Shown: piece by piece, positions 3,098 to 53,834 of the stretch | Layout: each line of letters starts with the position of its first letter | How positions within the stretch are numbered: the stretch's first letter is position 1 | Source of the DNA: Amphiscolops sp. MND2022 | Lineage: Eukaryota | Length of the DNA stretch: 64,000 nucleotides | NCBI GenBank assembly: GCA_964187785.1 | Contig: OZ076409.1 | Span: forward strand, 43,154,001-43,218,000 | Reading direction: 5' to 3' | Notes under the pieces: model-generated | What the model saw: the letters and a program-made list of their open reading frames with translations, nothing else | Databases searched by the model: none | Told to the model about the DNA's origin: nothing | Made by a program: the position numbers and the translations under genes

Positions 3098-5731
3098 TAA
3101 ACTTTCTTGTATGTTCGTTTAATAAACAGTAAGACTACAGAGAAATTTTACACGCAGCATGGATGCATGCAGGTTGGTTAAAAAACATTTTTTGCCGCTA
3201 GGAAGACATATCTGTAGCCCTCATTCTATCTAATTAGAAAAAATGATGCTCATTTTTCTCTGTCAAAAGCATATTTGAAACAGCTGACAAAAATGAGTTA
3301 CAAAAATAATTTAAGAAAAAAATCCACAATTTTGCCAATAAGGAATGCAGATAAAGACGAGGAGGAATTGTAACGGCAGGTATTGATAGGTTGCTTAACA
3401 CATTAGAGGTGGAGAATTAAGGACGGAAACGTATGATGTCCAGGACTGGCTGCCTTGAAGTCCTTAATCAATTTCCCTCGTAAGAATACCGGCCCCGAGA
3501 AGGGAGAACCGTCTTCTGGGAAGCTCTCCTACCTTCGTCCGGTCTTTTACTGCTATTGAATACGGGCATCTTGCTTTTTCCTCAGGACCAACATAAGGAA
3601 CGTTCGAAACGTTTCAAGAATAAGCAATATAAATTTCCATTTCCAAGGTGACATCGGAACAACGTCTAAAATTGCAAAAACTAGCTCTAGGGCAGGTAAA
3701 TACAGCTAATCACAGTGGAAATTCATCAAAGCACACATAGATATGGCAGACCACACAGCTGAAAGCCGGGGCGCAGGGGCTCCAGAAATCAAACAAGGAT
3801 GTTTAGGCAAAAAGTCTCATTTTTCCGGTTCTCGCTACATAGGATAGCAAAATGCTGAAAATCAGTAACAACCGTGTGTTAGCACCAAAAAGAGTGTGTG
3901 TTCTCTGTGTTCTCGCTCGGTCTGCTCTGGTCCTCGTTCTGCAGAGAAAGTGGGGAAACAGTTACAAGTGCAGTCACATGTCCAGTGCTACGTCACACAT
4001 CGAATTAGATTTTTGATCAAATTTATGATATGTGCAAATTCCAAAGACGACACCATACAATGGTGTACCAGAGGATGCCGTAATAAAGTTTCGAGACATG
4101 TCACGCACTTCAAAACCATCATTTCGAATCTAGTCAATTGAGAAGCAAGTAACACTGGCGAATGGCGAAACTACCAAGGAAAATTTTTGCGTGAGTAGTC
4201 ACTTATATGCCAACATGTGGCTACAGGCGTGTTTCGAGTCTGAAAGATACCTTCGTTATTTTCAGTCTATGCGGAGTGCTAACAGGTTCTTCCTGATTCT
4301 TTTCAACTTGAACCATTTTAATATCAATTTACTCACGTTTTTTCTAACAAGATGCGCCCTGAGCAATGCGAATACTTTTCGCTCTGAAGTCAAATAGATG
4401 CGGTATACTATGTCCCGAGCGTGGAGACTTCCACATTTTTCAAATCATTTCACGCATTGTATTTAAAGACAAAGAGAATGTTTCCTCAAATACCATATGA
4501 TTAGTGGACAACTTTTGGTATTGAACTCCATTGATATTCAAACTACAGAAACAATACTACAAATAAAAACCGATACAGTGAAGGTTATCAAAAAAGCACG
4601 AAACGTTCAATGTAGACACTTTTGGTTCCTATATAGGACATTGTGTGTTGTTTTACAGAATATCGTCAGCTTCCTCATTTTGAAAAAAAATGCTAGAGAA
4701 GAAGTAATTGTTTGTTGAAATGCTGTTGTTATTCAAAGACAGGAAAAACTGTACATCTGAATGTTCAAAAATTGTACTGAAACTGAGTAACACGTTTCAA
4801 ATTTGGAGAAAATTTGACTTTTGTGAGATTATCGCGAACTTTCCAGAAAATTTTCAACTTTCTCCTATGAAAACCTACTGAATAGTTGTTTTGACTACGT
4901 TCAATTCGCTGGATATTACAAACTACCAAAAAGTTCAAAAACTGCCATTGGTTTGTCAAAAATGAAATTTTTTGAACATTTGCGGAGATCCATTCGACGT
5001 CATTTCTGAACATTATGCGTCGAAATATCCACCAAAAAATCCAGAGCTTAGAAAAAAATTGCAACGAAGTGTCCAGAATTTAACAGAACGCATTTTGCTA
5101 GTATGCGCATTTTGCTAGTAGTATTTTGCTTGCATGTATGAAGAAATTTTTCGATAAATCAGAAAAAATTGCCGAATGAAATTTATTATCTGAATCAATG
5201 AACCTTTTGTTTTTGAAATATTTAGTTATTCAAACCTATAAAACGATCGAAAAGTGTACAGAAAGTGTAAGCTGTAACTTCCATAAGCATATTGCGATTT
5301 ACAGAAGAATTTTTCTAATTGTAATTGATCTTTGGAAAAAACTTTGAAACTTTTTGAAGTTTTCTTGAAATTTGAAACTTGAAATATTTTTTGAAGTGTT
5401 CTGTTGGTAAACCTTTTTCCGAGTCCTAAGGGTGACCTTTCGGAATATTTTCTGATTCTGTGGAACTGATGAAAGATTTGTTACCGGTTCATGAAGCAAA
5501 TAATATTTTCTGTTTTAAAATTCAAGTTGGATATTTTGTTTCAACTTGAAACTAAAAACTTTTTGACACTGGAGAATTAAATTATAGAAAGTGTTCGGAA
5601 ACTGATAAAAAGTTCAAAATACTGGACAAAACTTGAGTAGTTATTCTTTATTGGTGTCGTTGTAGGGTCTTTTTTATCCATTAACTCCTAAATGTTCGTC
5701 ATGAAAAAACATAACAGACGACTGTTCAGTT

Positions 5732-5873
5732 TGAATAAAACGGCTCATAAAGTTCTATTCGTCAAATAACTGTTCAGTATTAAAGTCAAAACCCATGTGA
5801 ACAAAGTCAACACAAGAAATCAAAATGTTTGGAAAAAAGTAGTTTGTGAGTTCGAGTTAATGAGTCATTATCA
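5732..5873 (-). repeat. 3' LTR of BEL/Pao element
   Basis: 142 bp; 9 substitutions versus 14076-14217 by manual alignment (~94% identity); immediately follows the integrase C-terminus on the minus strand. Confidence 0.95.
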
Positions 5874-8800
5874 TTCTCCGAGGGGGGGGCTTTGTTCTGG
5901 GAGGAATGTTTTTTGGGTGCACTAAGCTTAGCCTTACTGCGTGCCTAGTTACTTTTCCGAGGGCGGTTTTTAGTAAGCATGATCGAACGACTCCATCGGG
6001 CCCGGTGTGCGTCTTTTTCACGATACCCAATGGCCAGACACCTCGAGGGCAGTTGTCATTAAGGATCCACACAAGGTCTTCTCCTTTCAGCTGTGAATCG
6101 TGTTTGTTCCATTTGGGTCGTCCAATCATTTGCGGGGTAATCTCGTGTAGCAGGCGTTGCCAGAGACTATTCAAATAGCCCTGGGAGCGGCGCCAAGAAG
6201 ACTGAGCAGGCGAATCGCTCCCCCCGAAAATAGCGGCAGCAACATTTGGGCAAGGTCGATCCAATAAGAAGTGATTTCAAGTAATGGGTGTTGCATCTTT
6301 AATGTCGCTGCTGACAAGGGTTAAAGGTTGGCTCTTGAGAAGGGACTCGCATTCAACTGTGTTGGTGTCGAAAACTTCTCGCGTTAGGCGGCTGGACCGC
6401 AGAGTAATCAGGAAAGCTCGTTTAAATGGCTGAACTAAGCGTTCCCACGCGCCACCGAAATGAGGTGCACAAGGGGGATTCAGGCGCCATTGTATGCGTT
6501 GACGCGCAAGTTCTTTCCCTACAAACGTTTCATCGAATGCAAGAGGTTGACGACGAACTTCCTTCTTTGTTCCGAGGAAATTTGTTGCATTGTCACTGTA
6601 AATTATCTCTGAATCTCCTCGACATGCTACAAAACGACGAATAGCGGACATGCACGAGTCTCAGCTCAAGGAGTCTGCTACTTCGAAATGGACCGCTCTG
6701 CTCACAAGACAAGTGAAGAGGCAAACATACCGTTTTTCAGTGTTTCGTTTTTCTACAACTTCGAAAGGTCCAATGAAGTCAATACCGAGAGTTCGGAAAG
6801 GATAATGATTATTATCAGCATCTGGGAACCTGCAGGAAGGCAGACTGCTCATGTAAGGTTGTAGTCCTTGTTCGCAAAAGCGGCGACATTTAAAACAAGT
6901 GAAAGATATCGAGCGAAGGGTTGTTCTAAATCGGAAAATGTAGTGCGTTTGTTGGATGAAGTTTCGCACATGATCGATGCCAGCATGCATGCAAACCTCG
7001 TGGCAATGTTGAATGGAGAGGCGCGTGATATGTCCGTCAGAGTTCAAGATAACTGGGTGCTTTGTAGCCCATGGGAGAGACGCTTCGGTTAGACGACCGG
7101 TTGCTCGAATTAAGCCATTGTCATCTAGGAAAGGTCCAAGCGGAAGGAGTTTGTCCTTGTGACCAAGGGGTTTACCTTTTAATAATGCTTCGAGCTGCTC
7201 GGTGAACGAGGACTTTTGTGAACAACGGAAAAGATAATTTCTAGCCTTTGCGTAATGAGCCGCATTGATGGCTGTTTTTGCACGATCTTTGAAAATTTGT
7301 ATTGACTAGTACAACCTTGCAACAACTTGACCAAGTTGAGTAGTTTTTGAAGTCTAAAGATTCGAAGACTTCGGATGATGAACAAACGTTCGTTTCGTGT
7401 GACCGAGAGTTTTGGAAAACCCACTCTTTTTGTGGTAGCAGCAGGAACGGTGGAGGTGAAAGCCAGAGTTTTTCGATGTTTTCCGTTTTAATGCCGCGGA
7501 TGGCATGATCAGCTGGATTGGAGGCACCTGGTACATGATGCCACTGTTGAGATTTTGTTTTTTCTAGAATTTCTTTGATGCGATGGGATACATATGTTTT
7601 TGTTTGGAATCAGATTTGATCCAGGCGAGCACTGTTGCACTATCCGTCCAAAAGGTGACAGAACTCAGAGGAATGCGTAAACTTCACTGAATGAATTCAC
7701 TCAAGCGTACGCCGAGAACAGCGGCATCCAGTTCACGACGTGGTAAGCTCTGTTGTTTAATGGGTGCAATTTTGGAGCGGCCCACCACAAAAAAAGCCAA
7801 TATGGCTGTCGATTGTGGCATCCTGAGATAGGCTACGGTTCGGAGCGCCAATTGCGATGCGTCGGTAAATACATGAAGCTCAGTTCGCGAATTGGTAGGA
7901 AGGACTTGCATGCAACGCGGAAGAGAAACTCGATCAGATTTTGAGCTCTCGTGGAGCCATTTTTGAGTTCGTTTTTGGAATGTGATGGGCAAATTTTCGT
8001 CCCAGGAAACTCCAGTTTGCCAAACTTCCTGCAGAATAATTTTCAATGTGACGACAGCTGGTGCTACTAAGCCAAACGGGTCAAAAACGGAAGCAATCAA
8101 GGACAAAAGTTGCCGCAAGGTGAAACTTGTTTTTTCAGTAAAGTTATTCATATCGAACTTAAGGAAAAGTTTGTCTTCTTGTATATCCCAAGAAAACCCC
8201 TAAGACACGCAGTGGGTGTAATGACTGAACTGTGTGATCCTTGAGCGGACCTTGTAGGCAATTCAGGTCGTTACTAACGAACTTAGTAAGGTTGAATTCG
8301 CCTTTTTGAAGAGCCTCTTTAACTGACAAAAGATTTCGAAACGCTTCATTGGTGTTGAGGAAAGAATGAACTAAATCGTTCATGTGGAATGCGTCGTGAA
8401 TCAACTCTTTTGTGGCCTTATCGTCTGAGGCAAAATCGTCTGCTGATTGTTTCCGAGCGAATATAGCAGTGGTGGGAGAACAAGCAGCACTGAATATCAA
8501 ACGTGTGTACTGGTTTTGGCGGATCGAATTTCCAGTCAACCACAGGAAGCGAAGTGTGGCCTGGTCTTTCTCTGTAATGCTAATTTGCATAAACATGGCT
8601 TCTATATCAGCTTTAACAGCGACTGGTCGATCGCGGAAACGGAGCAGAAGGAGAAACAAGTTTTGAAGTAAGTCAGGACCTGACAAAAGGTTGTCATTTA
8701 GCGATTGTCCTCGAAAGGAAGACGCTGCATTTGCCACACGCCGAACTTTCCCAGGCTTTTTCGGGTTACACACTGGGTGATGAGGCAAATACCAAACTGT

Positions 8801-9680
8801 TTCAGGCTGAGGTTCCGCGAAGACCACTGGTTTCACATACCCTTTTTCCAAATCTGTTTGCAAAGTTTCTTGGTATTTGATTCGCAAGGTTTCATCATTG
8901 GACAAACGCGAATGTAACGACTTCAATTGAGCTTTGGCTACTGGATAGTTGTTTAGCAACTCAACCTTTTATTTCCATGTCAATCCAACTTCGTACCGCT
9001 CTCCTGTATGCCTCGTGTTCTCTTCAAGGAACTTCAATGCTTGCTGGTCTGTGATGGTGTTTTTGCTAGGAGTAGTTGATTCGGTACCAACAGAGTCAGC
9101 TAACCAAAGTCTCTGTACCATTTGAGTAAGAACGTCGTTTTCATGTGATGAGCTGTAAAATTAGTTCGGGAGGAGGAACAGGAAGTTCGCACACTCAAAG
9201 ATCCAGTGACGGTCCAACCTAGCAGTGTTCGGACTGCGTAGAGGTTCGGTTTCGGGCCTTGTAGTATTTCACGTGTTGCGATGTACTGGAATGCGTCGAT
9301 GCCCAGAAGAAGCTGGACTAAATTGTCAGGTAAACACGGAAAGGAGACATGGTTGAGGTGTGTGAATGTCTGACAAATCTCGTTTAGACGTTTCACATCT
9401 GGTGGTCTGAGATTCATCGAGTCAACTGCGTGAACGATGATCAGAGTGAACAAAGGTCGTTTGGAATTGTATGCCCCGATTTTCAGGGACACGATGCCTG
9501 CTTGCAGGAGTGACTGCTCATATATACTTGTTAGTTGAAGCTCAATTCTCCTTTTCGGTTGAATACCAAGTGTGTTCACGGTGCGATTTAGTATATAAGA
9601 TGCGGTACTACAGGTATCGAGTAAGGCGTAGCAGTCCACAAAACCTTTGTCGCCATGAACGCGTATGGGAACTGTTTGAA
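5874..9680 (-). pseudogene. pol: BEL/Pao pol (aspartic protease, RT, RNase H, integrase), frameshifted
   Basis: Protease YALLDTCSTASYI (9100-9639). RT WYLPHHPV..KPGKVRRV, SLNDNLLSGPDL, ADIEAMFMQI, with the catalytic YxDD decayed to HMNDL (8159-8959). RNase H ELHVFTDASQ, PRRELDAA (7684-8151). Integrase H..H..CxxC, GIDFIGPF, FTCLVSRAVHFE, IYSDNATNF, GGAWERLV, WPLGIV (5857-7047). Confidence 0.95.
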
Positions 9681-9859
9681 GTTGACTAGCTGCTTGATGC
9701 TTGAATCTGGTACTGGTATCGAACGCAGTTGTTGGTTCGAACTCGGAGGCCTTGTTTCCGGCAAATTTAGTGTCGCTTGAGGCAATTTTTTGGATCGGTT
9801 TGTTTTTGTGGTTAGAATCACCAGGTTTGGTGGAAGTGGACGCTGATCCTTGATTTTCA

Positions 9860-11578
9860 CGATGAAGGCTAGTGTGATGTCGTTTTCCACAGTTGGTGAC
9901 TTGACATCGAACAGTCGATTTGCAGTCTTCAACCTTGTGACGGGGTGAGAGACAATTAAAACAGAGGTTTGAGCTTCTGACAAAATTGATTCTTCCTTGG
10001 ACAAGTTTTTACAAAAAACAAGGACATTTTCCCAAATGATGTTTCTCGTTATCAATAGGGCAAGCTATGGAAGCATGTTTTTTCTTGCTTTTTCACTGGA
10101 AAGGTTGTCGATTTGGTACGAACATTTTACCCGTCGCTTTGTTTTGTAGTCTCAGGCATATATTCACAAGCTCTAGCGGTACACCGTCAACCGTTCTGAG
10201 ATGAAGCGGAAGGAAGCGCCGTTCGGGAAGCTTGTAATATTGTACTCATTCCACTTCATGTGAACAGCAGCTGGTAGCTTGGCGACGGCGGTTCCCAAAC
10301 TCGAGCGAAGATCAGAATCAAACTGTAGATTTTCGAACGTTCGAACGAGTTTGCGGAGGAAAGCGCTGAAACCTTTGAATGATGAAGGACTTGATATATG
10401 CGGTGCGGGAACTTTCTGCAGTTCGGAGATGAACGATTTTACAACATGTTTGGGATGACTAAAACGACGGCACAATTCGTCAAGAGCGGTTTTGTAGAAC
10501 AGAGGATTGCATCCGTGAAAGCCTGTAGCTTCTTTGGCTGAACCGAAAACTAGTGTTTGGAGATAGGTAAGATTTTCCATCTCGCTGAGTCGCATGTTAT
10601 TGTCGATGGCAGCCTGGAACATAGCGAACCAGTCGGGCCAAAGCATAGGATTACCATCAAAGCGGTCATGTTTGATGTCTGGTAGTTTGAAAGGAGAACG
10701 TTGACAGAGCTGATGACTTGTTTGAGCGCTTGGAGCAGGTATAGTCCTGAACGCAGCTGTTGTTGTTGGAATCGGAGGATGATGGGTAGGTACAACACTA
10801 CCGACACTAAACCGTACAGCCGAAGGCCCATGTGAGTCACAGGGTTCGTGACTGGGGTGTTGAGAGAAGGTGTTTTGGGGATTAGAACCGAACAACGGTT
10901 TAAGTGGGATCTGAGGTGACGGACGTTGAATGGAGTTGTGTCGGAAATTGGAGAAGGTGTTTCCAGTATCAGCCTCAGCAAACCGAATAGTGGTTGGACG
11001 CAAAGAGTCTTCGTCAAGCATGTCCAGTTGATAGAGACTTTTCGGATTCGATGTGACGTTTTGACTTGGACGGAAACTGCTGCTATGGAAACTGGATCAA
11101 GGTTAAGAGGGGCACTAAGATCCATCGGACTGGCTACATCAGTGGGAATGGTGTATGTTGGTTCTGATTCCGATGGGGGACGAGTGTTAGAAATAGGAGC
11201 TCGGCTACTCGGACTCGAGCGTGAGCTTGAACGCGTTGGTGCGGATTTGAATTCTATTTCATGCTTTTTAACAGCTAGAAGCAAGGTGAGTTTCTTTGAC
11301 TGAAGGTCTGCAGCTGTAGCTCTCAGATCGACCAACACTAGATGATCTATGGAATCCATTCGACGAAGAACGACTTCCAAATCATCCAGTTATCGGGAAA
11401 ATTCTTCATAGAGTAGGTTACAGAGAGTCGGGTCATCCTTGCTGGTGAGAGCGTTTGTCAGCCGGGAGTCGATATCCTCAAGGACGCCTGAATGACGCTC
11501 GAACCGTTTGACCAGCTCGAAATCTTTCTTCGGCAAAGCAGTTGATTCGTTTGTCATGTTCGTTGGGGGCGATTGCAC
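9860..11578 (-). pseudogene. gag: BEL/Pao gag, frameshifted
   Basis: KLPDIKHDRFDGNPMLWPDWFAMFQAAI...LTYLQTLV (BEL gag-like, 10173-11021). A Cys/His knuckle cluster near 9870-10060 reads CPIDNEKH.., LCFNCLSPRH..C..RCQVTNCGKRHHTSLH across frameshifts. Confidence 0.85.
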
Positions 11579-11579
11579 A

Positions 11580-12990
11580 AATCACAACAGATTAGGAGAA
11601 TGGGGGAATGCCTTTTGACAGCAAACGCAAGTAGCTCAATGGCCCACGCCAACAACTCAAAAGGCAGGAACGGAATTGAGGGAATGCCTTTCGCGGGTAA
11701 ATCCAAGGTCGCTGATGGCCAACGCCAACAGCTCACGACAGACAAGGAGACTCGGGGAATGCCTAATGCCACCAAACCCAAATAAATTGATGGCCCACGC
11801 CAACAACTGAAAAGACAAGGAGATTCGGGGAGTGCCTATTGCCATCAAACCCAAGTGTGTTGAAGGCCCACGCCAACAACTCACAACAAGGAGATTGAGG
11901 GAATGCCTATTGCCAGCAAACCCGAGTGTGTTGATGGCCCACGCCAACAACTCACAACAAGAAGGAGATTGAGGGAATGCCGATGCCCAGCAAACCCAAG
12001 TGTGTTGATGGCCCACGCCAAGAACTCACAACAAGAAGGAGATTGGGGGAATACCGATGCCCAGCAAACCCGAGAGTTTCGATGGCCCACGCCAACAACT
12101 CACAACAAGAAGGAGATTGAGGGAATGCCTATTGCCAGCAAACCCGAGTGTGTTGATGGCCCACGCCAACAACTCACAACAAGAAGGAGATTGAGGGAAT
12201 GCCGATGCCCAGCAAACCCGAGTGTGTTGATGGCCCACGCCAACAATTCACAACAAGAAGGAGGTTAAGGAATGACTATTGCCAGCAGACCCGAGTGTGT
12301 TGATGGCCCACGCCAGCAACTCACAACAAGAAGGAGATTGAGGGAATGCCTATTGCAAGCAAACCCGAGCGTGTTGATGGCCCACGCCAACAATTCACAA
12401 CAAGGAGATTGAGGGAATGCCTATTGCCAGCAAACCCGAGTGTGTTGATGACCCACGCCAACAACTCACAACAAGAAGGAGATTGAGGGAATGCCGATGC
12501 CCAGCAAACCCGAGTGTGTTGATGGCCCACGCCAAGAACTCACAACAAGAAGGAGATTGGGGGAATGCCGATGCCCAGCAAACCCGAGTGTGTTGATGGC
12601 CCACGCCAACAACTCACAACAAGAAGGAGATTGGGGGAATGCCTATTGCAAGCAAACCCGAGTGTGTTGACGGCCCACGCCAACAACTCACAACAAAAAT
12701 GAGATTGAGGGAATGCCTATTGCCAGCAAACCCGAGTGTGTTGATGGCCCACGCCAACAACTCACAACAAGAAGGAGATCGAGGGAATGCCTATTGCCAG
12801 CAAACCCGAGTATGTTGATGGCCCACGCCAGCAACTCACAACAAGAAGGAGAGTGAGGGAATGACTATTGCAAGCAAACCCGAGTGTGTTGATGGCCCAC
12901 GCCAACAACTCACAACAAGAAGTAGATTGAGGGAATGCCGATGCCCAGCAAACCCGAGTGTGTTGATGGCCCACGCCAACAACTAACAAC
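11580..12990. repeat. 74-bp tandem array (~19 units) in the BEL 5' leader
   Basis: Consensus gcaaacccgagtgtgttgatggcccacgccaacaactcacaacaagaaggagattgagggaatgcctattgcca. Period measured 12138->12212 = 74. Some units are 71 bp. No unique spacers. Confidence 0.97.
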
Positions 12991-13214
12991 TGGAAGAGTT
13001 CTGAGGTAGATGAAAAGAAGACTGCTTCATAAATTCAATTTATGAAGCAGTCTTCTTTTCATCTACCTCAGAACTCTTCCAGTTGTTAGTTGTTGGCGTG
13101 GGCCATCAACACACTCGGGTTTGCTGGGCATCGGCATTCCCTCAATCTACTTCTTGTTGTGAGTTGTTGGCGTGGGCCATCAACACACTCGGGTTTGCTT
13201 GCAATAGTCATTCC
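12858..13214. repeat. Perfect palindrome, 178-bp arms, 1-nt loop (C13036)
   Basis: Centre ctgcttcataaatt-c-aatttatgaagcag. The right arm reproduces private variants of the last array units (gaagtagattg/caatctacttc; ggaatgactattgc/gcaatagtcattcc). Confidence 0.97.
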
Positions 13215-13674
13215 ATAGCGTAGCGACTATTAGGCTTTGTTTTTTTCAGGGGTTCCATGTAACCATTCATTAAGACTTAGCTTTTCGTAGGAATAGCATA
13301 GGAATACCAAGAAAAACCAGACATTTCAATTTGTTTTCGTTTCTTTTTGACATTTGAGTTCTTCTCAATAATTCCGAATCGAAACCGCCCATTCGGCCCG
13401 GTGTGAAACGTCACCAATGCACTCAACTATCTCCAAAAACGAAGTTCGTTTTTGGAGATAGTTGAGTGCATTGGTGACGTTTCACACCGGGCCGAATGGG
13501 CGGTTTCGATTCGGAATTATTGAGAAGAACTCAAATGTCAAAAAGAAACGAAAACAAATTGAAATGTCTGGTTTTTCTTGGTATTCCTATGCTATTCCTA
13601 CGAAAAGCTAAGTCTTAATGAATGGTTACATGGAACCCCTGAAAAAAACAAAGCCTAATAGTCGCTACGCTATG
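13214..13674. repeat. Perfect palindrome, 230-bp arms, 1-nt loop (G13444)
   Basis: Centre tctccaaaaacgaa-g-ttcgtttttggaga; ends catagcgtagcg / cgctacgctatg. Confidence 0.97.
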
Positions 13675-14061
13675 CTTAGGTTGCTTGTAAGTTTTATTTG
13701 TGAAGTAGGAAATGCAATCAGATGTTGCGCTAAGCAAATTCAAAAAAATTATAGGGGGAGAAGCGGAGAATGTTGCTTTTCTCCACTTCCAGATCACGAG
13801 CTTGATGGGTTACCACTGAGATGGGTTTTTACTCAGAGGGGCATCCACTGAGGCGGGTGGCCACCGAGAAAGGGTTAACAATACCATTTTTGTAAGAAAG
13901 AATACACGGAGGAGTTATACAAAACAGGATGTCAAAAACTGGGGACAAAAATTGATGTGTTAGGACACATGCTGTTTTTTTAAAATTCAAGAAGAAATGT
14001 TTGTAGGGAAAGTTTTTTTATAAATTTTTTCAGGTTGGTAAAGATAGCATCGTTTTAATAA

Positions 14062-14075: not shown

Positions 14076-14217
14076 TAAATAAAACGGCTCATGAAGTTTT
14101 ATTTGTCAATTAACTGTTCAGTATTAAAGTCAAAACCCATGTGAACAAAGTCAACACAAGAAATTGAAATGTTTGGAAAAAAGTAGTTTGTGAGTTCGAG
14201 TTACTGAGTCATTAACA
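14076..14217 (-). repeat. 5' LTR of BEL/Pao element
   Basis: Direct repeat of 5732-5873; begins TGTTAATG on the minus strand; adjacent to the PBS and TSD. Confidence 0.95.
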
Positions 14218-16050
14218 CAGTTCGTCTCTGAAGTTTTGGATGTTTGATACCCTCTAAACATTCAAAAATTTTGGAGAAGTTCCAGTGAAGTTGCTAAAAA
14301 GGGACTCTGTAGTTTTTGGGGGTAAATCTTGATTTCTTAACAAAAACGTTTACTCTTCGTAACATTTTTCTTCAGTCACAGTGAACAATCTTTTGGCCTA
14401 CCGTGGTTTCGAGTCCCGCACTCAACCAAAATTTCATGCTTGCAAAGGTAGAGGAAAAAGCATTCGATGTTTTAGTCAATATGTGCCTTTTTGACTTTTT
14501 ATTAGTTTTAATTCATTCATACTTTTTTGATTTTTTGATACCTTTGGATGGGAAAAACGTGCAACTGTCAACATTTGCTGATTGCGCAACATCTTGATTC
14601 TTGCAGGTCTTGATTCTTGCAATCCACAGAGCATGCATCGTCCACTAATTGTTAAAACATGCTAGCTAACAGATCACTGTGTTTTTGGACGTTTGAAATT
14701 TCTTTTACAGAGCCCGTAAGCTCTGCGGCGTACGAGGTTCTCATCGAAAATCGTTTTCCCACAGCAGTAAAAATTCCGTTTGAGCACCGTTAAAGCGCTT
14801 GTTGTTAAAAGTTTGAAGCACCGTTGTTCGTGGTAAAAAAGTTTTTTGGCGGAAGAACCACTGTTCAAAAGGAAGACACGCGATTTTTGGATACTTTTTG
14901 TTCGTCGTTCGGCTTGATTTCGATGAGATGTGCTTATGTGCTGCTCCATACCTGCAAAAAAGTAGCATCTTTTAATCAATAGCAAACTATGAACTGCTCG
15001 TGAGAGTTAGCACTCGAATAAAGAAAGAAACGATAGACGAAATCTTGCAAATCCGATATCTGGAGCACGTGAACTCCGCATTTTTGAGTGTCACGTTGAT
15101 GCCTGGGGGACAATTCTGAAAATCTTGTGATAAATACGCAAAACTAAAATTTCACCTTCTGGTGAAGCGATACATGTAGAGATTTTGGAATGCTTATTGC
15201 GTTTATAGAAGTATACTAATTCGAAGAAACAAAGTTATATGACGACGTTTACTTGACTACTATTGAAGTATTGGAGTCAAGCTGGGGAAATAACTGCTTG
15301 AAAACGAGCGTCACGCTGCCAAGTGTCCATTACCAAACGTAAATATCCTCCGGGCATTGTCCTTTCAAAATGTAGAGAATAAGGATGTTATTATCCTCAT
15401 CTGGGGCTCCCCGGGCCCTAATCATTGCGCACCCTCCTTGATATGAGGACAGTAATGAATGGAATGCCAAACCGAAAATGCAAGAAGATACATTGGGCGT
15501 TGACGGCAAACCTCGCTGCTTGAGAAGAAATGGAGTGTTGTTTGGAATGGATAGGCATCACCATCCAATAGCAGAAGGACGTGTATCCGGTAAGAAGTAT
15601 CAGGTAATCAAATTGAGAAGACTTGCCGCTTCTTCAGGGTTCTTGTTGTTTCTGGTGATAGAAATGTTCACTTTTAAACAGCAGTATTTTTTCATTTTAC
15701 GGAACTTGCAATCTTGTTTCGAATTCTCAACTTCCTTGATGGAATTCCACAAAAAACCAAAAACGTTGCAAATTCAAAAAGTGATTATTTTTCAAGAAAC
15801 TCACAAAATTGTATTACAAGTAAATGGCAACCTGCAAATCTTGTAAAGGTTTCGAACCATATCAATCAAGGTTGTTTGGGATTCAATTTATTCAAAAACC
15901 AACCTAAGTTTTTGGGAAAACGTCAAAAACATTTGATGATTGTTAGTTTCCGCCCACATAAATGGTGGAGGAGTGTCATGATCTGTGTTGCGTTTTTTTT
16001 ACAAATTCTGCCAAATCTCCAGTTTATTTACTCCTTTTACTGAAACGATA

Positions 16051-29190: not shown

Positions 29191-30481
29191 CCCGGGTCGA
29201 CCCTCCATGGATATCTTAGTAAGATCTTGGCAAGATCTTGCCAAGATCTTGGAAAAATCTTAGCTAAGATCGTGACAAGATATTGCCAAGAATTGCAAGA
29301 TGCCATGGTAAGATCTTATCAAGAGAGCCATGTTTCCAAGAAAAATCTTACTAAGAAGCCCAATATGGCAAGAAAAATCTTACTAAGAAGCCCAATATGG
29401 CAAGAAAAATCTTACTAAGAAGCCCAATATGGCAAGAAAAATCTTACTAAGAAGCCCAATATGGCAAGAAAAAAGTGCTACGAACTGCTCGATATCGAGA
29501 AAAAGTAGAACCAGAAAATCATTAAATTAGGAGTTATGTAAAAATAATCTAGACATCACTCAAAACAAAATTACTGAATGATTTTTACAACCATTTCGAT
29601 ATCGTAGATACATTATTGTCATTTTGTGAATGAATTGATTTTCATTTGTCGCTCGTAGACTAATTTTGGGGATTCCTTTCGAAGCTGTCTTTCAAAAGGT
29701 GAAAAATTTCTTTGCGCGAATGAACTTCTTCGGCGTTCCAATTTCATACTGACCCTGAAAAAAACACCCTACATCGTTTTCCATTTCACAGGAATAAGAT
29801 CTAAAGCCACTGAAATAATGAATAAAAGCACAGGAATAAGATCTAAAACCACTGAATTGAGAACCGAATCCACAGCAATATACATGGAATAAGATCTAAA
29901 ATTCCCCAATACGACATTTTCTCCAATTTCAATCGTAAAAAATCAATAATGGGCACAAATCTGTGTACGTCGGTTCTCATTTTAGTGGTAGAAGACCTAA
30001 AGCCATTGAAATAAGGACTAAAACTGCTGGAAAATCTAAAATTCATCACGACATTCCAATTTCATACTGAAAACCCCTGAAAAAACCTCATACATCGGTT
30101 TCCATTTCACAGGAATAAGTTCTAAAGCCACTGAAATAATGTCCAAAAGCACAGGAATAAGATCTAAAATCACTGGAATAAGGTTTGGATTCACAGAAAA
30201 TTTGAATCTTTACAGGAAATCAAGGTCCAGCCTGAGAAATCACGTAAAGACCCGGCAAAAGAATTATCATACGAAAGTAGCTAATTTTAGCACCCTTGAT
30301 CGAAATTTTGAAATCTTAGAATTTTTTCGATCTTAGTAAGATTTGATCTTGGAATGATGATACATCTTGGTAAGATCTTAGTAAGAATCTTGCCATGGGA
30401 TCCATGGCTGCCAAGATGTAGTAAGAATTTGGCAAGATCTTGCCAAGACAGCCAAGATGCTAGTAAGAGGGTCAACCCGGG
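29191..30481. mobile_element. CMC/EnSpm-like non-autonomous DNA transposon
   Basis: ca|CCCGGGTCGACCCTC ... GAGGGTCAACCCGGG|ca: TIRs, 2-bp TSD and subterminal aagatctt repeats at both ends. Confidence 0.7.
29337..29473. repeat. 32-bp minisatellite x4.3
   Basis: caagaaaaatcttactaagaagcccaatatgg units start at 29337, 29369, 29401 and 29433, with a partial unit at 29465. Confidence 0.95.
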
Positions 30482-31519: not shown

Positions 31520-34200
31520 AGTACAAGCTTAGCAAGTGGGCGAGTAAAAAGACCACTGGAAGTTTGATGGTAGCAGATCAAGCAATACCATCATCAGATA
31601 TGTTCATCTTGAAAAAACGTCCCAGGGGGTATTGACCCTTAGCACTTGAACTATCAACGAGCCAGGTTAAACTGTCAATTGAGATAGGTAACGTTGAATC
31701 AGAAATCCACATGGACCTGGTTTGCAACTGGTAACATGTTTGTTTAGCCAACGGCGCCAAAACAATTCAGTATAACATTGAGCCTGACGAAACACCCGTT
31801 GATGAGAATGATCATTGGATTGAACTAAGCCAACAGTAAAGTATCCGGTGGAAGGACCTAGCAAAACGTGATTGGGTGCTAAAGCATCAAGACCATTCAC
31901 ATCAAAACTCACTGCAGTTAGAGGCCGAGCTTTAGGAGCTGCTCTACTAGGGCATAAAGTCAACAAAGTCTCTTCGGTTAGACGGCGGCCATTCCTAACA
32001 GCAAACGTGGCTCTTTTGCAGGACCTAACTAATCGTTCCCAAACCCCACCGGCTTCGCAACCACGATAGGTTGAGTGAGACGACTCGTTGTCACTTCGAG
32101 TAGGGGACAAAGCAAAGCTCTTTAGCTCCTTTGAAGCTCCTACAAAATTAGTGCCATTATTGGCGTTGAATCAACTTGGGAATGCTGTAGCACGGACAGC
32201 TGTACTTTGGTTGCTATTGCTTGGATAGCAAAAATTTTAAGGAAAACTGATATTCAAACTAGACGACATAACACTGAAAATTAAACGCGGTAAAAGCGCT
32301 GAATACTACACATTGAAAAGATGAATAATCGAAGTCTCAATATGATAGTTAGGTAATCTCAACAATCGGAGATCATCGTTTTCGGTACATCCCGCCGCGC
32401 ATTGAATCTCTGAATTGCTAACAATTAGGAGTCAGTGGTGAGCGAATGACAAACCGCGAACGGCGGTTGATTGAAACCAAGTTTTTCACTGGACAAGTCA
32501 GCCATCTGAGGCTGTACAAAACTGGGACTCCGTTTTCTACACAACAAACAATGGTTCTTGATACGACGAAGTTCGGCTTCTAACACGACAACCCAATACG
32601 TCTGTTGCACACTTGACCGTAAGAATTCGACCCCTTCAAAAGAAATCTCTGATTGAATTTTAATCAGGAACAACTCAACAACTGGATTTTGAAAAGAAAG
32701 AATGATTGGCTGTTTTTGTTCAAAGATCATTTTAGAAGCACTACGGATCCTTGCACGGGTCTAATCAAACCATCACACATTAACGGAACTAATGGAGCAA
32801 TGGTTGATTGGTCAAGTACATCGTTACCCTGATCCAGAGAAATGTAAACTTTGACAAATTGTTTCCGTTGAACTAGGCGCCAAATGGTACGTTCAGATTC
32901 ATTCAGTTTCTCAGCGGTCAAAACAGATGAAGTTTTCTGTTCGTTATTCGGTGTTTCTCGCAGTTGTTCAAAGAACTTTCGCAACCTCAGCACTCAACCC
33001 ATAGCTCGTTTCACTTTATTGTTAAAAAAGTTCTAATTCACTTGCTAAAAAGTTCATCATCAAAGACATTTTTTGCTGGGCGGTTTGCACCCTGGCTGTG
33101 GCACATACAGCTGTTTTCGATTCAGAAGTGCTATCAAAAGCTGGCTTTGCAGGCCGTTGATCGTTTTCAAAATTCAAAAAATACGCTCCACCGAACCACT
33201 CACAATGTTTCAGCTCGGTTACTTTCACACGGCGATTGCCAATGTGGGCAGGGTTTTGAATTCCCGGAACAAAGTTCCACTCATCAACTCTTGAGTGATC
33301 TAATATTTCGGCCACATGATTGGCAACAAAAACAGGCAAACATTTATGAGATGAATCAATCCATTGAAAGACAGTGGAGCTGTCGTCGCTCCAGAAAACA
33401 GTTGCTTTGATTGTCAATGGCAAAATTTTTTAATTGAAGTCACAAGGCGCAGACCTATCAGACTGCTTGCAGTTCAAGCTTGGGTATAGTGGTCGCACGT
33501 ATGGGAGCGACACGGCACTTTCCTACTAAGAATGAAACTTGCAACACTTGATCCATTGGGCACGTAAATGAATGACCGCACACATAGCGGACTGCAAAAA
33601 TGCCCCGCTCAAGTTTGATGTCGGAGATATTCCTTTTTTCAGCATCCCATTCAAAAAGGCAACTTCAATTTCATCAGGGACTGGTGCGTCCCATTTTTGG
33701 CCTTTGACGCACCAAAGTTGTTTCAGAGCTGAGCGGCCTGTTATGGTCAAGGGAGAAATGAAACCCATAGGATCAAATATCCCGAAAACTGCTTATAAAA
33801 CTTTTCGCTGAGTAATTACATTGGTTGTCAAATTAGTTACACCTCAACACACACTCAATGAATCTGTTTTGGAGTCCCATTGTATCCCCAAACACTAATT
33901 TCAGACATTTCATTGAAGTTAGATATGTCGAAGGAAACATTTTTTGACAATCGATTGAAGGTTTCTACATCATTGGTTATGAACTTAGTGAGATTGAACC
34001 CACAATTCTCCAATATTTGCTTGACCTGAAGAGCGACGGTAAATGCATTTTCCGGACTGAAAAAAGACTTCAAAATGTCATCGACATAGTATGAATCAAA
34101 AACTGTTTCGAAAGCTAAAGGGAATTGCAAACGGTTATCTCTAGCCTCTTGTTGACCACTAAAGTTAGCGACAGTGGGATCAATGATGAGATTGAAGTCT
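31520..34200 (-). pseudogene. pol: Second, 5'-truncated BEL/Pao pol remnant (RT C-half, RNase H, integrase)
   Basis: FDSYYVDD..GFNLTKF (33855-34217); FDPMGFISP; FWSDDSSTVFQWI..FVANHVAEI..NPA (33022-33423); CLLCRK..PQMADL; NGTNFVGA; GGVWERLVRSCKRA; YPLGR; RPLAKL. A 3' LTR may lie at ~31130-31472 but was not verified. Confidence 0.92.
32164..32364. mobile_element. 201-bp solo LTR inserted in the BEL integrase
   Basis: attgg|CGTTGA...TCAACA|atcgg: near TG..CA inverted ends and a 5-bp TSD with 1 mismatch; it splits ISD|NGTNFVGA. Confidence 0.8.
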
Positions 34201-34311
34201 ACCAATATACGCATCATATCTTTGGTGCATTTTCATCTTCACTCCCGCTAATTTTAGTGTTCAACAAGGCTTGAGATAACCCTTTGCAATTCCCTTTAGC
34301 TTTCAAAAGTT
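34101..34311. repeat. Decayed inverted repeat at the BEL RT truncation point
   Basis: gaaagctaaagggaattgcaaacggttatctc..ttagcg (34110-34170) is the reverse complement of 34246-34304 with a few mismatches. Confidence 0.85.
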
Positions 34312-34398
34312 CGCTTTAGTCTGGAATGAAATGTAGATTCTAAATTACTTTCGAATAATTTGGTCAGTTGGCAGAACGCCAATACAAAAATTCAATAA

Positions 34399-34534
34399 TT
34401 TACAAAAGTCATTCATGAAATCAAACTATTTACTATGCAAGAATCATTCGCAGAAACAATCAAAAGCTTTTGATTTATTCTGCGAATGATTTTTGCATAG
34501 TTAATAGTTTGAATTCATAAATGACTTTTGTAAA
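34399..34534. repeat. Decayed palindrome, 68-bp arms, no loop
   Basis: Centre atcaaaag|cttttgat (34466/34467); arms tttacaaaagtcatt... / ...aatgacttttgtaaa with scattered mismatches. Confidence 0.9.
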
Positions 34535-37479: not shown

Positions 37480-37885
37480 ATCTTACCAAGATCTTAGGGA
37501 GATCTTGAATTCTTGAATATCTTGGAAAGATCTTGGATTTTATCTTGACATCTTGAATTTCTTGGTAAGATCTTGGATTTCATCTAGGATATTTTGACAA
37601 GATCTTGGATCTTGAAAATCTTGGTAAGATCTTGGATCTCGAATATCTTGGCAAGATCTTGGATTTTGTCTTGACATCTATGAATATCCTAAGGCCGGTC
37701 ACGTGTTGTACAGAAATCTACATCAGCAGAGAGCCTCCACCTCAAAGTAAGGACATTGTTCAGTTTCTGGAAGCGTTGCTTGTAGAAGAACTACATGTTT
37801 AACAAATATATTCTTGGAAGCTATCTTGGATTTCTTGGTGAGATCTTGGATTTCATCTTGGATTTCTTCCAAGATCTTGCCAGAA
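37480..37885. repeat. aagatcttgg-rich degenerate repeat related to subterminal repeats of 29191-30481
   Basis: Numerous aagatcttgga/atcttgg motifs in two clusters. Confidence 0.6.
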
Positions 37886-44979: not shown

Positions 44980-47600
44980 ATCCTGAAGCAATGGACATTG
45001 AGTCCATGCAGTCAGCGACAAGGCCCGCGCAGTCTCCTCTTACGAGACTTCTAGAAAAAGACAGTAGTGACTCAAATGAAAGTTGCCAAGCCTATTTCAC
45101 ACGGAAAATGGCGAGCGTTGGAACTGAGTCCGGTAATCAAGAACCCCAGAAGTGAAGAGTCACGTTCCTCGAGAAAATCGAATCTACCCTATAGCACTTA
45201 CTCCAAGTCAGCAACGAACTGGAAATACAATCCAGCTGGAACGCTTTGTCCCCAGAGTTAGGTTTCTGGATACAACTCCAATCCCATCAGAGGATACGCT
45301 TTGCGGGGCCCCAATTATGAATGTCAAACTGACTCAGTTTTTTAGACATCACTCTCCTCCGCCGTGTACTTACTGTCAACGGCCATCCTCACTGGTATCC
45401 GGTCCCACTTGCTTCGTCTCCCGCACCACGGAATATGAGCAACCTACATCTTCGCTTGGAGTCCCTCCAAGTAGCAGTTCCGACATGGGTCTAGACACTG
45501 ACATGGAGTCCACCAATGTCGCCGGTTCCACTTTCACAGAACCCATGGCAGCAGGGATGACCCAACATCAGGTGGATTGCAGTGACAACTCGAGCAGTGT
45601 TACACCTGTCAAACTCGCTCGAGACTCAAAGTCCCAACCATTCAGGGCCAGTAGCCGAGCATTGCGGAAGGAGCATTTCATCTCAAGTGAGCCCTTCAGC
45701 TTACCCCCAGGCCATCCCACAATCGCGTTTACTGAAGACCATGTCAGTAGCGTGTTGAGAGTTGTCACCAATGAAACCGCCAGGGCTTTTCACTACATGT
45801 TAGAAAACCTAATTCAGAGGGCTAGTCTGCTGAGGTTGGAGTCACAGTCTACTCAGCCGAAAACTGGCACGAAAACTGAACACGAACGATATGGAGGCGA
45901 CAACGTTCACTGCAAAACGTATGAAAGTACAGGGCATGACCACTGTGACACAAGCGGGGCATTCCGCAGTGATGATGATTTCAAGAGATTTGGCTACTCC
46001 TACAAGCTATCTTATCTGAACCTCGCCCAATGGCAAGACCAAGCATCAAGTACCTTTTCCTTGTGTCATTGAAACTTGAAGCCGGATCGAAAAACGGATA
46101 AGGCCGTCATTGAAACGGATAAGGCCTCTCGCCCCAATGGACAACGAAATCGTTTCATTTCTTCCTCCCGAGGTACTGGCAGCAGGAGAAAAGTCACTCG
46201 CTCCTGTGAGAGCATGACGGAGGTGAAATTCAAAGGGATGGAATGGAAAAAGACTTTCGTCTCTGGCCCTGTGCACCCACGGTGGAGCCCCTGCAAGTTC
46301 TCTGCCAAATTTGCAAAGCAAATATATCAATATTTGGGAAAGGAGACAAGGATATCTTGAGACATCATTCTACCAAAAAGCACCTCCAAAAGGACCATCG
46401 CTGGCGTTATGAGCACCTGGCCAGAACAGACCCTTTCACGAAGTTGAAGGTTCATCAAGTCTGGGACAAAGGAGGCAAGCTTCCTACGCCATATCAATTA
46501 AAACGTGAGTTTTCCACATTCAAAGACGCAGAATTAGTGGACATTGGGGAGAAGCTCTCCTATTACGACAAGTACACGTCTGGTATTGACTTTAAGCCTC
46601 TTCTGCGAACCATCGTCTCGGACGCTGATTTCTGTCTATTGCTGGTTTCTCCCCAGTTAGGGTGACCTAGACTTTTTCAAAAAAATTCTGCAGCGTTGTG
46701 AGCGTCATCTTCAGCATCAGTCTCTATTCACCGGCATGGATTGGGTGAAAGAACGGCTGTCTGTAAGTGTTTTTAATGCTCAACATTAAGACCTTTAGTA
46801 ATTAGCACAAAAGACACTCGCTCATTTGACCAGAGTAATTTTCTTTCTTGATAGGTTCGTTAACTTTAGGTGATCTTTCCATATGTTTCTCGAGATAGTC
46901 AAAAACAATGGCACACTTGTGGCTGCGACTTCTGAATACTCCTTTGGATTTGACAACGACGGGGTATTCTTACTGCTATTCATCCGATAATGGCGCGACG
47001 ATCAATTGTGTCGGGTGTTTCTCCGACGGACTGGACGTTTAAAGGGCTAAATCCGTGCCGAGGTATGCCGCATAGATGGGGTGATGGGTGCCATTTCATC
47101 TTTTCCAAACCCCAATAGCTGCACCAGGTGTAACTTCCGCACTATTCGTTTGCTGGACCAATGCCTATATACGCATTTCGGTCCACAAAGTCCTTCACGT
47201 TTCGACGAGCTCTCTTTACCCACTCCAATGCGCAAGAACAACCACAGTGTAAACGGGAAAAGAAACTTTTCCTCTAAACTAGGCTTTCTGGTCGTGTCAC
47301 TAGGGGGAAGCCTGGAACGTGAGTGGGATGCTACTCTCCTCTGAACTTTTTAATGTTGATCATCAAACTGCAAGTCTCGTTTTTTCACATACCATATAGT
47401 TGCTAATGTTAAACCGTTGGTTTGGGCAATCCGATCCTACCAGCTTGACCTTACCGGTCTGCCAGTCATGTGTCAAGAGCACCTACGCTATTGGACACAG
47501 GTAATTGAATTCCTCAGTAAACAGGCTACAACACACGAGATGCAGGGGGTTAGGAAACAGGTAAGTATTCCCTAACCCCTTACCCATTTCATGGTATTCA
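44980..47600 (+). pseudogene. Degenerate ORF(s) with BED-like zinc finger, probable transposon remnant
   Basis: Low-complexity ORF 45152-46072, then EWKKTFVSGP.. and CQICKANISIFGKGDKDILRHHSTKKH (C-x2-C...H-x4-H) across frameshifts. No catalytic domain recognised. Confidence 0.45.
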
Positions 47601-48889
47601 ATACTCCTAGTTTTATCCTCAAAGTCTACAGTGGTCAATTGTGTAAGGCGATCTGTTTCGATGCCACTTGGAGCTGTTCAACCGATTAGTTCGAGACTGT
47701 AAGTAAACTACCCCGATTGCGGTTGTTTGTAGTTAGTTCTGGTAATTTCTTTGGAGCATTTGATCTAGGCAACCTACTTGTTGACCTGATTACTCAGTCT
47801 ACCTATTGCTTGAAACAACTTTTCAACTACTTGCTTTTCAACAACTTTTCCAGCTACGTGGGATCTTCCACTGAGACGAGGAGTTGAAATATGCCGAGGT
47901 GTACATTTTTTTCCTCGACGAGCTGGAGTAATTGCACCCAACATTGAACAGACCAAATTGCTCTATTCGGACAACATTGAAAAAATGTCTACGGCCACAC
48001 CAAACCAAAATCTTCCGCCCGAATTGTTTGTGGCTTGACGAGCCTCTCTTTTTTTCGGCAGTTCAATTTAGTCCAGTTAACAATGATCATCCAAAAATTC
48101 AACGTTCGGCAATCAACATCTTTGCCCCAATACTATCTTATTTGTGTAATGCCCTCAGCCGAGTCGAAGTGTTCACCTCCGAACACTTCGAACCACCGAA
48201 CACATCTATCCTCAAGTTTTTTCCCCTGGAGCCTACTTTTGGAACCATTGGCCTTATCAACTGGTATAGTCCCTAGTATCAGCTAGAATAATTTGGCCAG
48301 ATCCAAATCCAGAAATCCATTGAACCAGTCGCATCCAACAGTCGTGAAGCTTCAACGACTCCAAGTCACCGTGGAATTAGTAGGGCCCTCGTTCCGTTTC
48401 ATGTCCCCAAGCCAAGAAGACTTTGTAGCAATCTTCTGACAGAGCAAGAAATGGCTGATGCAGCCAACCGCTTAAGTAGTGGTTTCGATAAATCTTAATT
48501 GTACAATATGTACAATTGTGAAGGATTTTGTAATTTGTTTTACATAGACTTTCGATGTATTTATTATTCGTGTTCGTTTGTTGCCGCTATTTATTTCTTT
48601 TGGATTTTCAGTCTGATAGTCAGTCAAGTACCGAAATAGATACTATTATTAATTATAAACGGGGCCTTAAATTTACGAACCCGACAAGTACCTGTAATCA
48701 TCAGTGAATTTGGGGGTGGGGTTAGGTCAAAAGTTTTATTTTCCTCAACTAGGACTTTCATTTTCTACAATCAAAAATTTCATCGTCCAATTTTCAAGCA
48801 AGACAGTAGTTTTTGGTCAGGACACCATTTTCATTTCCGTTTGGCCGTATAGACTGAAAGTCCACGATGGTGGAATCTTTGTTCCATTA

Positions 48890-49681
48890 CAGTGCACAGG
48901 CAAGCTATTTTGCTGTTTTCGTGGAATCCGGGACACGAAAATTGAGAAAAGTCGTGGAATCCAGGACAAAATTTCTCTTTGATGTTAACGGTGTCTTGGA
49001 TTCCACGACAGTGCTTGTCCTGGATTCCACGCCAATACTGCTGCTATAATGACACTCTTGCTGCTGCTCTCTGATTGGTCCGCTGATTTTGAGTAATCAT
49101 TTTATATTGATTCAATTTTATATCAAAGGAAACTGTTTTGATCGACACGAAAAATCCAAGAAGTACGAATAGAGATACTCGTGACTGGTACCAAAATTGA
49201 AGCATGTCATTAAAAAGTGGCAGATTGGGATGATCTGGCAGTTTGTTCAAAACTGGTACTAAACTGAAAAATCTAAAAATTTTGTGTGATATTGGTGTGA
49301 TTGTCTGAATCATTTTGAATTAATATATGAAAAGTAGTGCATAATATTATGTTTGTTCAGTCTACCACTTGAATTTAATTAAAGGAGAGATGCCGCGTAT
49401 CGCGTCAAGCATAAAGTCGTGGAATCCAGGAAATTTATGATTTCTGCAATCTGATTGGTTCATTTCGCAAAACTTACGTTTTTGTGGAATCCGAGACACC
49501 GCTGCATGCCGACAGTTCGTACAGCTAAGCATTTGTTACTGGAATCCACGACTAAATCCGTGGAATCCGGGACAATTGACGTAATTTGCCAATTTTGCAC
49601 GGTTAAAGGTATGGTCGTGGAATCCGAGGTATTGAACGCACTATGTTGCGCTTTGAGCAAATAAGGCTTGCCTGTGCACTC
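48890..49681. mobile_element. Tc1/mariner-like MITE, copy 1
   Basis: ta|CAGTGCACAGGCAAGC ... GCTTGCCTGTGCACTC|ta; internal (g)tggaatcc repeats. Confidence 0.85.
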
Positions 49682-49734
49682 TAATGTCTGCTGGCTAACA
49701 TTACCATCAGGGGCGTAAGAAGAGCCTATGCTTA

Positions 49735-53780: not shown

Positions 53781-53834
53781 TAATGTCTGCTGGCTAACAT
53801 TACCATCAGGGGCGTAAGAAGAGCCTATGCTTAA

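What the first reader, a model, noticed from the sequence alone, without database searches (positions are those of the whole stretch)
12858..13674. Back-to-back perfect palindromes (A-A'-C'-C) with complementary 1-nt loops: possible footprint of a doubly hairpinned break
Seen: two adjacent palindromes with 178-bp and 230-bp arms and no mismatches by eye. They overlap by one base at 13214, and their loops are C (13036) and G (13444). Inference: deleting A'C' and one loop base restores a simple A-N-C leader. Complementary loop bases are what a 1-nt staggered break gives if both ends are sealed into hairpins (or fold back and are extended), opened ~200 bp from the tip and then joined with 1-nt microhomology. 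Known: hAT transposases and RAG leave hairpins on flanking DNA and produce P-nucleotides, but normally only a few bases long. The arms are identical while the LTRs differ by ~6%, so the event is much younger than the insertion.
Basis: partly seen in the sequence, partly recalled or inferred. Interest (0 to 1): 0.75.

Follow-up and report, generated by a model that had tools for sequence, protein, structure and literature searches.

The report
Double fold-back scar in dead retrotransposon
Two perfect back-to-back DNA palindromes about 200 bases per arm sit in the front end of a dead jumping gene in what is probably an acoel worm, and they are likely the scar of a DNA break whose two ends each folded into a hairpin before being rejoined, an unusually long and two-sided form of a known repair footprint that still needs read support.

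Summary
They lie in the 5' leader of a decayed BEL/Pao element, probably in an acoel. The inverted arm copies only the adjacent array units (0 mismatches against 5-14).

A 1-nt stagger opened like-for-like gives identical loops. Complementary loops need either two or more lost bases, or both distal nicks on one strand. No target-site duplication of 1-12 bp fits, so this is not a standard hAT footprint, and it is not an inverted triplication.

Two decayed palindromes at 34.1-34.5 kb (about 9-10% arm divergence) suggest that fold-backs persist in this genome, which argues against artefact. No genome, reads or sister DNA were obtainable, so the ancestral junction is untested. The scan noted short hAT-type palindromic scars in other genomes but returned no long two-sided one. 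Verdict: new variant of a known kind, single case.

The parts
12858..13035 (+). Arm A: last 133 bp of the 74-bp array plus 45 unique bp; likely original leader DNA
13036..13036 (+). One-base centre (C) of the first palindrome
13037..13214 (+). Arm A': exact inverted copy of A; its array part has 0 mismatches to the adjacent units and 5-14 to the 11 other registers
13214..13443 (+). Arm C': exact inverted copy of C; shares base 13214 with A' (1-bp overlap)
13444..13444 (+). One-base centre (G) of the second palindrome
13445..13674 (+). Arm C: unique leader DNA running on towards the 5' LTR; likely original
11577..12990 (.). 74-bp tandem array, 19.2 copies, in the element's leader
14076..14217 (-). 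5' LTR (142 bp, starts TG), preceded by a 5-bp target-site duplication at 14218-14222 and followed by a primer-binding-site-like motif (motif recalled)
5732..5873 (-). 3' LTR (TG...CA), followed by the matching 5-bp target-site duplication at 5727-5731
5857..11389 (-). Broken gag-pol of a BEL/Pao element (DUF1759, Peptidase_A17, DUF5641), split by stops and frameshifts
34101..34311 (.). Older decayed fold-back at the truncated end of a second BEL remnant: 65 of 72 aligned bases pair, and the 63-bp spacer is inverted upstream RT coding sequence (context evidence)
34399..34534 (.). Older decayed palindrome, 68-bp arms, 6 mismatches, no centre base, 87 bp from the previous one (context evidence)

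Best explanation
Two perfect palindromes with one-base centres lie back to back in the leader of a dead BEL/Pao element, and they are likely the scar of one double-strand break whose two ends were each sealed into a tight hairpin, opened about 200 bases from the tip, and joined through one shared base. Shown: the A-A'-C'-C anatomy, the local origin of both inverted arms, the 1-bp join and the recent age. Inferred: (1) the break; (2) covalent hairpin closure by strand transfer, most plausibly by a hAT-like transposase excising an element that lacked a target-site duplication on one side or had deleted its flank; (3) off-tip opening, giving 178- and 230-nt tails; (4) end joining and fill-in. Read on their own tail strands both tips carry the same base, which fits like-for-like processing of two ends with two or more bases lost between them better than a 1-nt stagger.
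For: Both centres are a single base, the geometry reported for Ac/Ds hairpin footprints (PMC5873905, passages), whereas fold-back priming in yeast uses loops of 3 nt or more (PMC7467729, passages). If one base lay between A and C, the first U-turn would have 0 paired bases to prime it for either candidate base, which disfavours polymerase switching. The 1-bp join is in the NHEJ range of 0-4 bp reported in yeast (PMC11724301, section 19). A' matches only the adjacent array units. Ds can excise without a canonical target-site duplication, and a hairpin model was proposed for a 598-bp inverted repeat next to Ds (PMC1978519, passages and section 5). Decayed fold-backs 21 kb away suggest that such structures persist in this genome.
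Against: No target-site duplication of 1-12 bp fits both the arm ends and the loop bases; the 8-bp hAT case matches 3 of 6 overlap bases and predicts the wrong loops. Published P-arms are far shorter: at most 20 nt in yeast and 3 nt in Candida, and typically 1-7 nt in Artemis-null cells (PMC2193825, passages). No transposase was identified in the window: a multi-copy family with a BED-like finger is only a lead, with atlas scores under 0.9 and no Pfam or PDB match. The two cut-site flanks share only 5 of 16 bases. The older pair is not shown to be the same kind of event, as its distal arm does not align better than shuffles (91 of 500 as good) and one of its centres is even. No reads or sister alleles were seen.
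Confidence: 0.45

Rival explanations
1. Library, amplification or assembly artefact: a fold-back or whole-genome-amplification chimera, or a false duplication written by a long-read assembler.
For: The arms are perfect. The relatives come from ENA assemblies of unknown library type. Amplification puts palindromes in 40-50% of Arabidopsis reads, up to 15 per read (PMC6218980, passages). Long-read metagenome assemblers report false duplications and repeats (10.1101/2025.04.22.649783, passages). No run could be checked.
Against: Described read fold-backs turn once near the read midpoint and are virtually absent from HiFi genomic data in one survey (PMC12870357, passages), although another lists fold-back inversions among the main filtered PacBio junctions (10.64898/2026.06.24.734375, passages). 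Here three junctions fall within 409 bp and the element continues collinearly to an LTR with a matching target-site duplication. The centres are C and G, not the A and T that A-tailing would add (inference). Diverged palindromes nearby cannot be read artefacts.
Confidence: 0.18
2. Snap-back synthesis at both ends of an ordinary break: each resected 3' end primed on a tiny pre-existing inverted repeat with a three-base loop, a polymerase copied about 200 nt, the tails were displaced and then end-joined.
For: One-sided local fold-back insertions of 10 to over 150 bp form this way at yeast breaks (PMC11724301, passages). Three-nt loops occur in sae2 mutants. It needs no transposase and no target-site duplication, and like-for-like 3' tails give complementary top-strand loops.
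Against: Both loops must be triloops closed by a complementary pair. I estimate well under 1 in 100 for both together from the loop sizes (rough inference). Wild-type yeast loops had a median of 36 nt. The yeast events I read about were one-sided.
Confidence: 0.15
3. Same-strand splice at a replication fork: one base lay between A and C, and two adjacent fragments of one strand (178 and 231 nt, Okazaki-sized) were ligated in swapped order into the other strand.
For: It is the only single-base solution that gives complementary loops (4 of 8 cases). The lengths are close to the 148/160/148-bp segments of small inverted triplications whose breakpoints align with Okazaki termini (PMC13334657, abstract and Discussion).
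Against: It needs two homology-free strand joins (0 bp priming). The published Okazaki-linked product is DUP/INV/DUP with about 30-bp spacers and 6-bp junctions, which this is not. The length match is post hoc.
Confidence: 0.1
4. Multi-step rearrangement: a 409-bp tandem duplication or small circle of the site, later inverted or reinserted by cuts at the same base in both copies.
For: It gives the same A-A'-C'-C order (inference from geometry). Young tandem duplications of 4.1 and 3.5 kb exist in the window.
Against: It needs two events and two cuts at exactly the same nucleotide, with no recognisable target motif.
Confidence: 0.05

Closest known systems
Ac/Ds (hAT) excision footprints with P-nucleotides (PMC5873905, passages; PMC1978519, passages and section 5)
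   Same: Palindromic additions copied from the flanks, centred on one base, possible at both ends, joined with little microhomology.
   Different: Arms here are 178 and 230 bp against at most 20 nt in yeast; there is no 8-bp target-site duplication; no transposase is identified.
Antirrhinum niv-525, a roughly 200-bp inverted duplication at a Tam3 excision site (recalled; not found)
   Same: As recalled, a hairpin-derived inverted duplication of similar arm length.
   Different: As recalled, one-sided and with a known element; here two-sided with no element shown.
Local fold-back inversions at yeast double-strand breaks (PMC11724301, passages and section 19; PMC7467729, passages)
   Same: An inverted copy of the break flank, up to over 150 bp, end-joined to the other end.
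   Different: They are primed by pre-existing inverted repeats with loops of 3 to 41+ nt and were one-sided in what I read; here both ends are copied and both centres are one base.
Small inverted triplications / ODIRA (PMC13334657, abstract and Discussion)
   Same: A local inverted copy of about 150-200 bp between direct-orientation flanks, giving two hairpin-forming junctions.
   Different: A triplication shares one inverted segment between both palindromes and has about 30-bp spacers; here the two palindromes share one base and no segment is triplicated.
V(D)J coding joints in Artemis-deficient cells (PMC2193825, passages)
   Same: Two hairpin ends opened off-tip and joined.
   Different: P additions typically 1-7 nt; RAG-type hairpins give even-centred palindromes (recalled), these are odd.

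Membership tests
hAT excision footprint | Palindromes copied from the flank and centred on a single base | tested here: met
   Both centres are one base; feature from PMC5873905
hAT excision footprint | Remains of an 8-bp target-site duplication on both flanks | tested here: not met
   3 of 6 overlap bases match and the predicted loops are wrong; no length from 1 to 12 fits both criteria
hAT excision footprint | Centre base is the complement of the base that bordered the element | not testable with these tools
   No ancestral or filled allele obtained
hAT excision footprint | P-arm length of a few to about 20 nt | tested here: not met
   178 and 230 bp against at most 20 nt
hAT excision footprint | A hairpin-forming transposase family in the genome | tested here: inconclusive
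   Multi-copy BED-like finger family at 45-47 kb; atlas scores 0.85-0.89, no Pfam above cut-off, no PDB hit
Small inverted triplication / ODIRA | DUP-INV-DUP, one segment present three times | tested here: not met
   A and C are each present twice; the palindromes share one base
Small inverted triplication / ODIRA | Spacer of about 30 bp and junction homology of about 6 bp | tested here: not met
   1-nt centres, 1-bp join (feature)
Fold-back priming inversion | Pre-existing short inverted repeat with a loop of 3 nt or more at each centre | not testable with these tools
   Needs the ancestral allele; with a one-base ancestor the first U-turn has 0 paired bases
Long-read fold-back artefact | Absent from independent reads; single turn near the read midpoint | not testable with these tools
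   No run was listed
BEL/Pao LTR retrotransposon (host element) | DUF1759, Peptidase_A17 and DUF5641 domains between LTRs with a 5-bp target-site duplication | tested here: met
   3 Pfam matches above cut-off among the element's 8 frames scanned; LTRs and duplication

The most novel reading that the evidence does not exclude
Acoel germ lines have a recurrent repair route that writes nucleosome-sized mirror copies of both flanks into a break. In its boldest form, two neighbouring Okazaki fragments (178 and 231 nt) are ligated in swapped order into the opposite strand without homology, a rearrangement class (A-A'-C'-C) distinct from inverted triplication and from hAT scars, with the decayed pair at 34.1-34.5 kb as an older example.
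Probability: 0.12. Interest if true: 0.7.

Novelty: new variant of a known kind. Interest (0 to 1): 0.4.

Why it matters
If reads confirm it, this is a natural record of both ends of one break being hairpinned and opened about ten times further from the tip than the P-nucleotide footprints I found in print. That bears on how long perfect palindromes arise in animal genomes and how hairpin ends are opened outside model species. The loop letters make the mechanism testable: one, two or many bases between A and C in sister elements separate three routes. If transcribed, the leader would form two long hairpins against its own element family (inference, no RNA data). As a single scar in a dead element it has no shown function.

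Tried and rejected
**Ancestral allele.** No whole genome is held. No sequencing run was listed. RT-protein scans found no relative in viral or genome contigs (0 of 5 and 0 of 52 candidate stretches) and only 2 distant loci at 46-49% identity among 64 metagenome candidates. A 21-base pattern from arm C matched nothing in two collections. A search for sister proteins reading across the junction found 0 of 25 candidates.

**Standard hAT, MULE or short-duplication excision.** Rejected on target-site geometry; the 12-bp case matches the loop letters but only 5 of 10 overlap bases.

**1-nt stagger with like-for-like opening.** Rejected.

**Inverted triplication.** Rejected on anatomy.

**A foldback transposon or a transposon end at C.** No convincing terminal repeat.

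**Ectopic array unit as template.** Rejected.

**Structured RNA family.** No Rfam match.

**Older locus as a complete A-A'-C'-C twin.** The distal arm is not significant.

**Short odd palindromes as scars.** There is an excess at 6-bp arms, but no insertion in the 8 of 32 centres that had a usable homologue.

**Transposase identity of the 45-47 kb family.** Unresolved; the profile search could not be run.

**Literature.** Ten searches listed no report of a two-sided footprint with arms of about 200 bp. The library lacks most subscription papers, two older papers were not held, and no supplements were read.

Full report
OBSERVATION. The two palindromes are exactly as described: 12858-13035 against 13037-13214 (178 bp) and 13214-13443 against 13445-13674 (230 bp), 100% complementary, with centres C and G and one shared base. 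Ten shuffled windows gave longest perfect arms of 8-11 bp, and the strand folds 64 standard deviations below 20 shuffles.

CONTEXT. The structure lies in the 5' leader of a minus-strand BEL/Pao element. Its LTRs are at 14076-14217 and 5732-5873, with a 5-bp target-site duplication. Its broken gag-pol matches DUF1759, Peptidase_A17 and DUF5641. The leader holds a 74-bp array of 19 copies. Of 402 RT homologues, 120 were listed; the two with names are Convolutriloba macropyga proteins at 46-49% identity, and seven unnamed ENA proteins are 86-93% identical. The host is therefore probably an acoel with many sister copies (inference).

TEMPLATE AND AGE. The array part of A' has 0 mismatches to the adjacent units and 5-14 to the 11 other registers, so it was copied locally. 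The LTRs differ at 8 of 140 bases and the arms at none of about 407 (P about 1e-10; upper bound 0.73%). The event is probably younger than about one seventh of the element's age, unless the arms are being homogenised.

LOOP LOGIC. I followed the strands through hairpin closure, opening and fill-in on random toy DNA. With one ancestral base and a 1-nt stagger, the four like-for-like openings give identical loops on the top strand, and only the four mixed openings give complementary loops. Mixed opening means both distal nicks lie on the same strand. With two ancestral bases and one base lost from each end, like-for-like opening returns those bases or their complements, so complementary loops follow if the two bases are complementary. 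A longer deletion gives complementarity about one time in four by chance (inference). The loop pair is therefore not proof of a 1-nt stagger. With a one-base ancestor, the first U-turn has no paired base to prime it, which argues against polymerase switching for that case.

TRANSPOSON TEST. Ac/Ds footprints are centred on the complement of the base next to the element, with arms up to 20 nt in yeast and 3 nt in Candida (PMC5873905, passages). MULE, hAT, Transib and RAG all hairpin the flank (PMC5499845, passages). For duplication lengths of 1-12 bp, none fits both the arm ends and the loops: 8 bp matches 3 of 6 overlap bases, 9 bp matches 3 of 7, and 12 bp fits the loop letters but only 5 of 10 overlap bases. 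A standard excision is excluded. Excision without a canonical duplication is reported, and a hairpin model was proposed there for a 598-bp inverted repeat (PMC1978519, passages and section 5), so an atypical excision stays open. I recall Antirrhinum niv-525 as a one-sided inverted duplication of about 200 bp after Tam3 excision, but could not retrieve it. The window holds a decayed member of a multi-copy family with a BED-like finger at 45-47 kb (28 relatives among 182 candidates), but Pfam, atlas and PDB searches did not name it.

OTHER MECHANISMS. Yeast fold-back insertions reach over 150 bp but use pre-existing inverted repeats with a 41-nt loop in that assay (PMC11724301, passages and section 19). 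Loop medians are 3-5.5 nt in sae2 or mre11 mutants and 36 nt otherwise (PMC7467729, passages). Small inverted triplications have similar lengths and Okazaki-linked breakpoints but a DUP/INV/DUP layout with about 30-bp spacers (PMC13334657, abstract and Discussion), which this is not. The same-strand solution amounts to two adjacent 178- and 231-nt fragments of one strand spliced into the other. Okazaki fragments are my speculative source for them.

IS IT REAL? No reads were available. Amplification and assemblers do make false palindromes and duplications (PMC6218980 and 10.1101/2025.04.22.649783, passages). Surveys differ on PacBio fold-backs. Against artefact: three junctions within 409 bp, a collinear return to an LTR with a matching duplication, centres that are not A or T, and two decayed palindromes at 34101-34311 (65 of 72 aligned bases pair) and 34399-34534 (62 of 68). 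The first of these sits where a second BEL remnant is truncated, and its 63-bp spacer is the upstream RT coding sequence in inverted orientation, as expected from a longer fold-back that lost part of one arm or from a template switch. The two are 87 bp apart, but the outer part of the second does not align better than shuffles (91 of 500 as good) and its centre is even, so they show only that fold-backs persist here.

SHORT PALINDROMES. In 51,217 bases left after masking arrays, satellites, the finding and the tandem duplicates, odd-centred palindromes with arms of 6 bp or more number 34 against about 20 expected (0 of 60 simulations reached it under two Markov orders). Spacers of 0, 2 and 3 were not clearly raised, and arms of 7 bp or more were not raised (5 against 5.4). 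Of 32 centres examined, 8 had a usable homologue and none showed an insertion. This excess is unexplained and I do not count it as support.

ANCESTRAL STATE. Every route to sister DNA failed, so the decisive test is open.

VERDICT. The feature is present exactly as described and is probably real (about 0.8). It is best read as a double fold-back repair scar, with covalent hairpins the leading route (0.45), then artefact (0.18), snap-back synthesis (0.15), a same-strand fork splice (0.10) and multi-step routes (0.05). It works like a P-nucleotide footprint but fails membership as a standard hAT footprint. Ten literature searches listed no two-sided case of this size, within a library that lacks most subscription papers; no supplements were read. 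Earlier notes of this scan describe short hAT-type scars in other genomes; look-ups for long adjacent pairs returned none. New variant of a known kind, interest 0.4.

Noticed in passing
window 34101-34534: Two decayed palindromes 87 bp apart at the truncated end of a second BEL remnant; the first has an inverted piece of upstream RT sequence as its spacer. Possibly an older fold-back event.
   Followed up: yes
window 45137-47700 (+): Decayed copy of an abundant multi-copy family (28 ENA relatives, most of 300-750 aa) with a BED-like C2H2 finger near the end, followed by an apparent splice donor. No Pfam above cut-off, no PDB match; possibly the first exon of an undescribed DNA transposase.
   Followed up: partly
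window 47679-61287: Young tandem duplications of about 4.1 kb (99.4%) and 3.55 kb (97%) carrying gypsy-like integrase and RNase H fragments; could be real or an assembly duplication.
   Followed up: no
whole window, unmasked 51 kb: About 1.7-fold excess of perfect palindromes with 6-bp arms and a one-base centre (34 against about 20); no insertion seen in the 8 that could be compared with homologues.
   Followed up: partly
window 11577-12990: 74-bp array of 19 copies fills half of a 2.5-kb BEL leader and runs up to the likely gag start; no Rfam match.
   Followed up: partly
window 29213-29473, 30429 and 37530-37879: Dispersed satellite-like motif built from short self-complementary units, forming small odd and even palindromes.
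   Followed up: no
   Followed up: no
window 13804-13858: Three diverged 16-bp tandem units in the leader between arm C and the 5' LTR.
   Followed up: no
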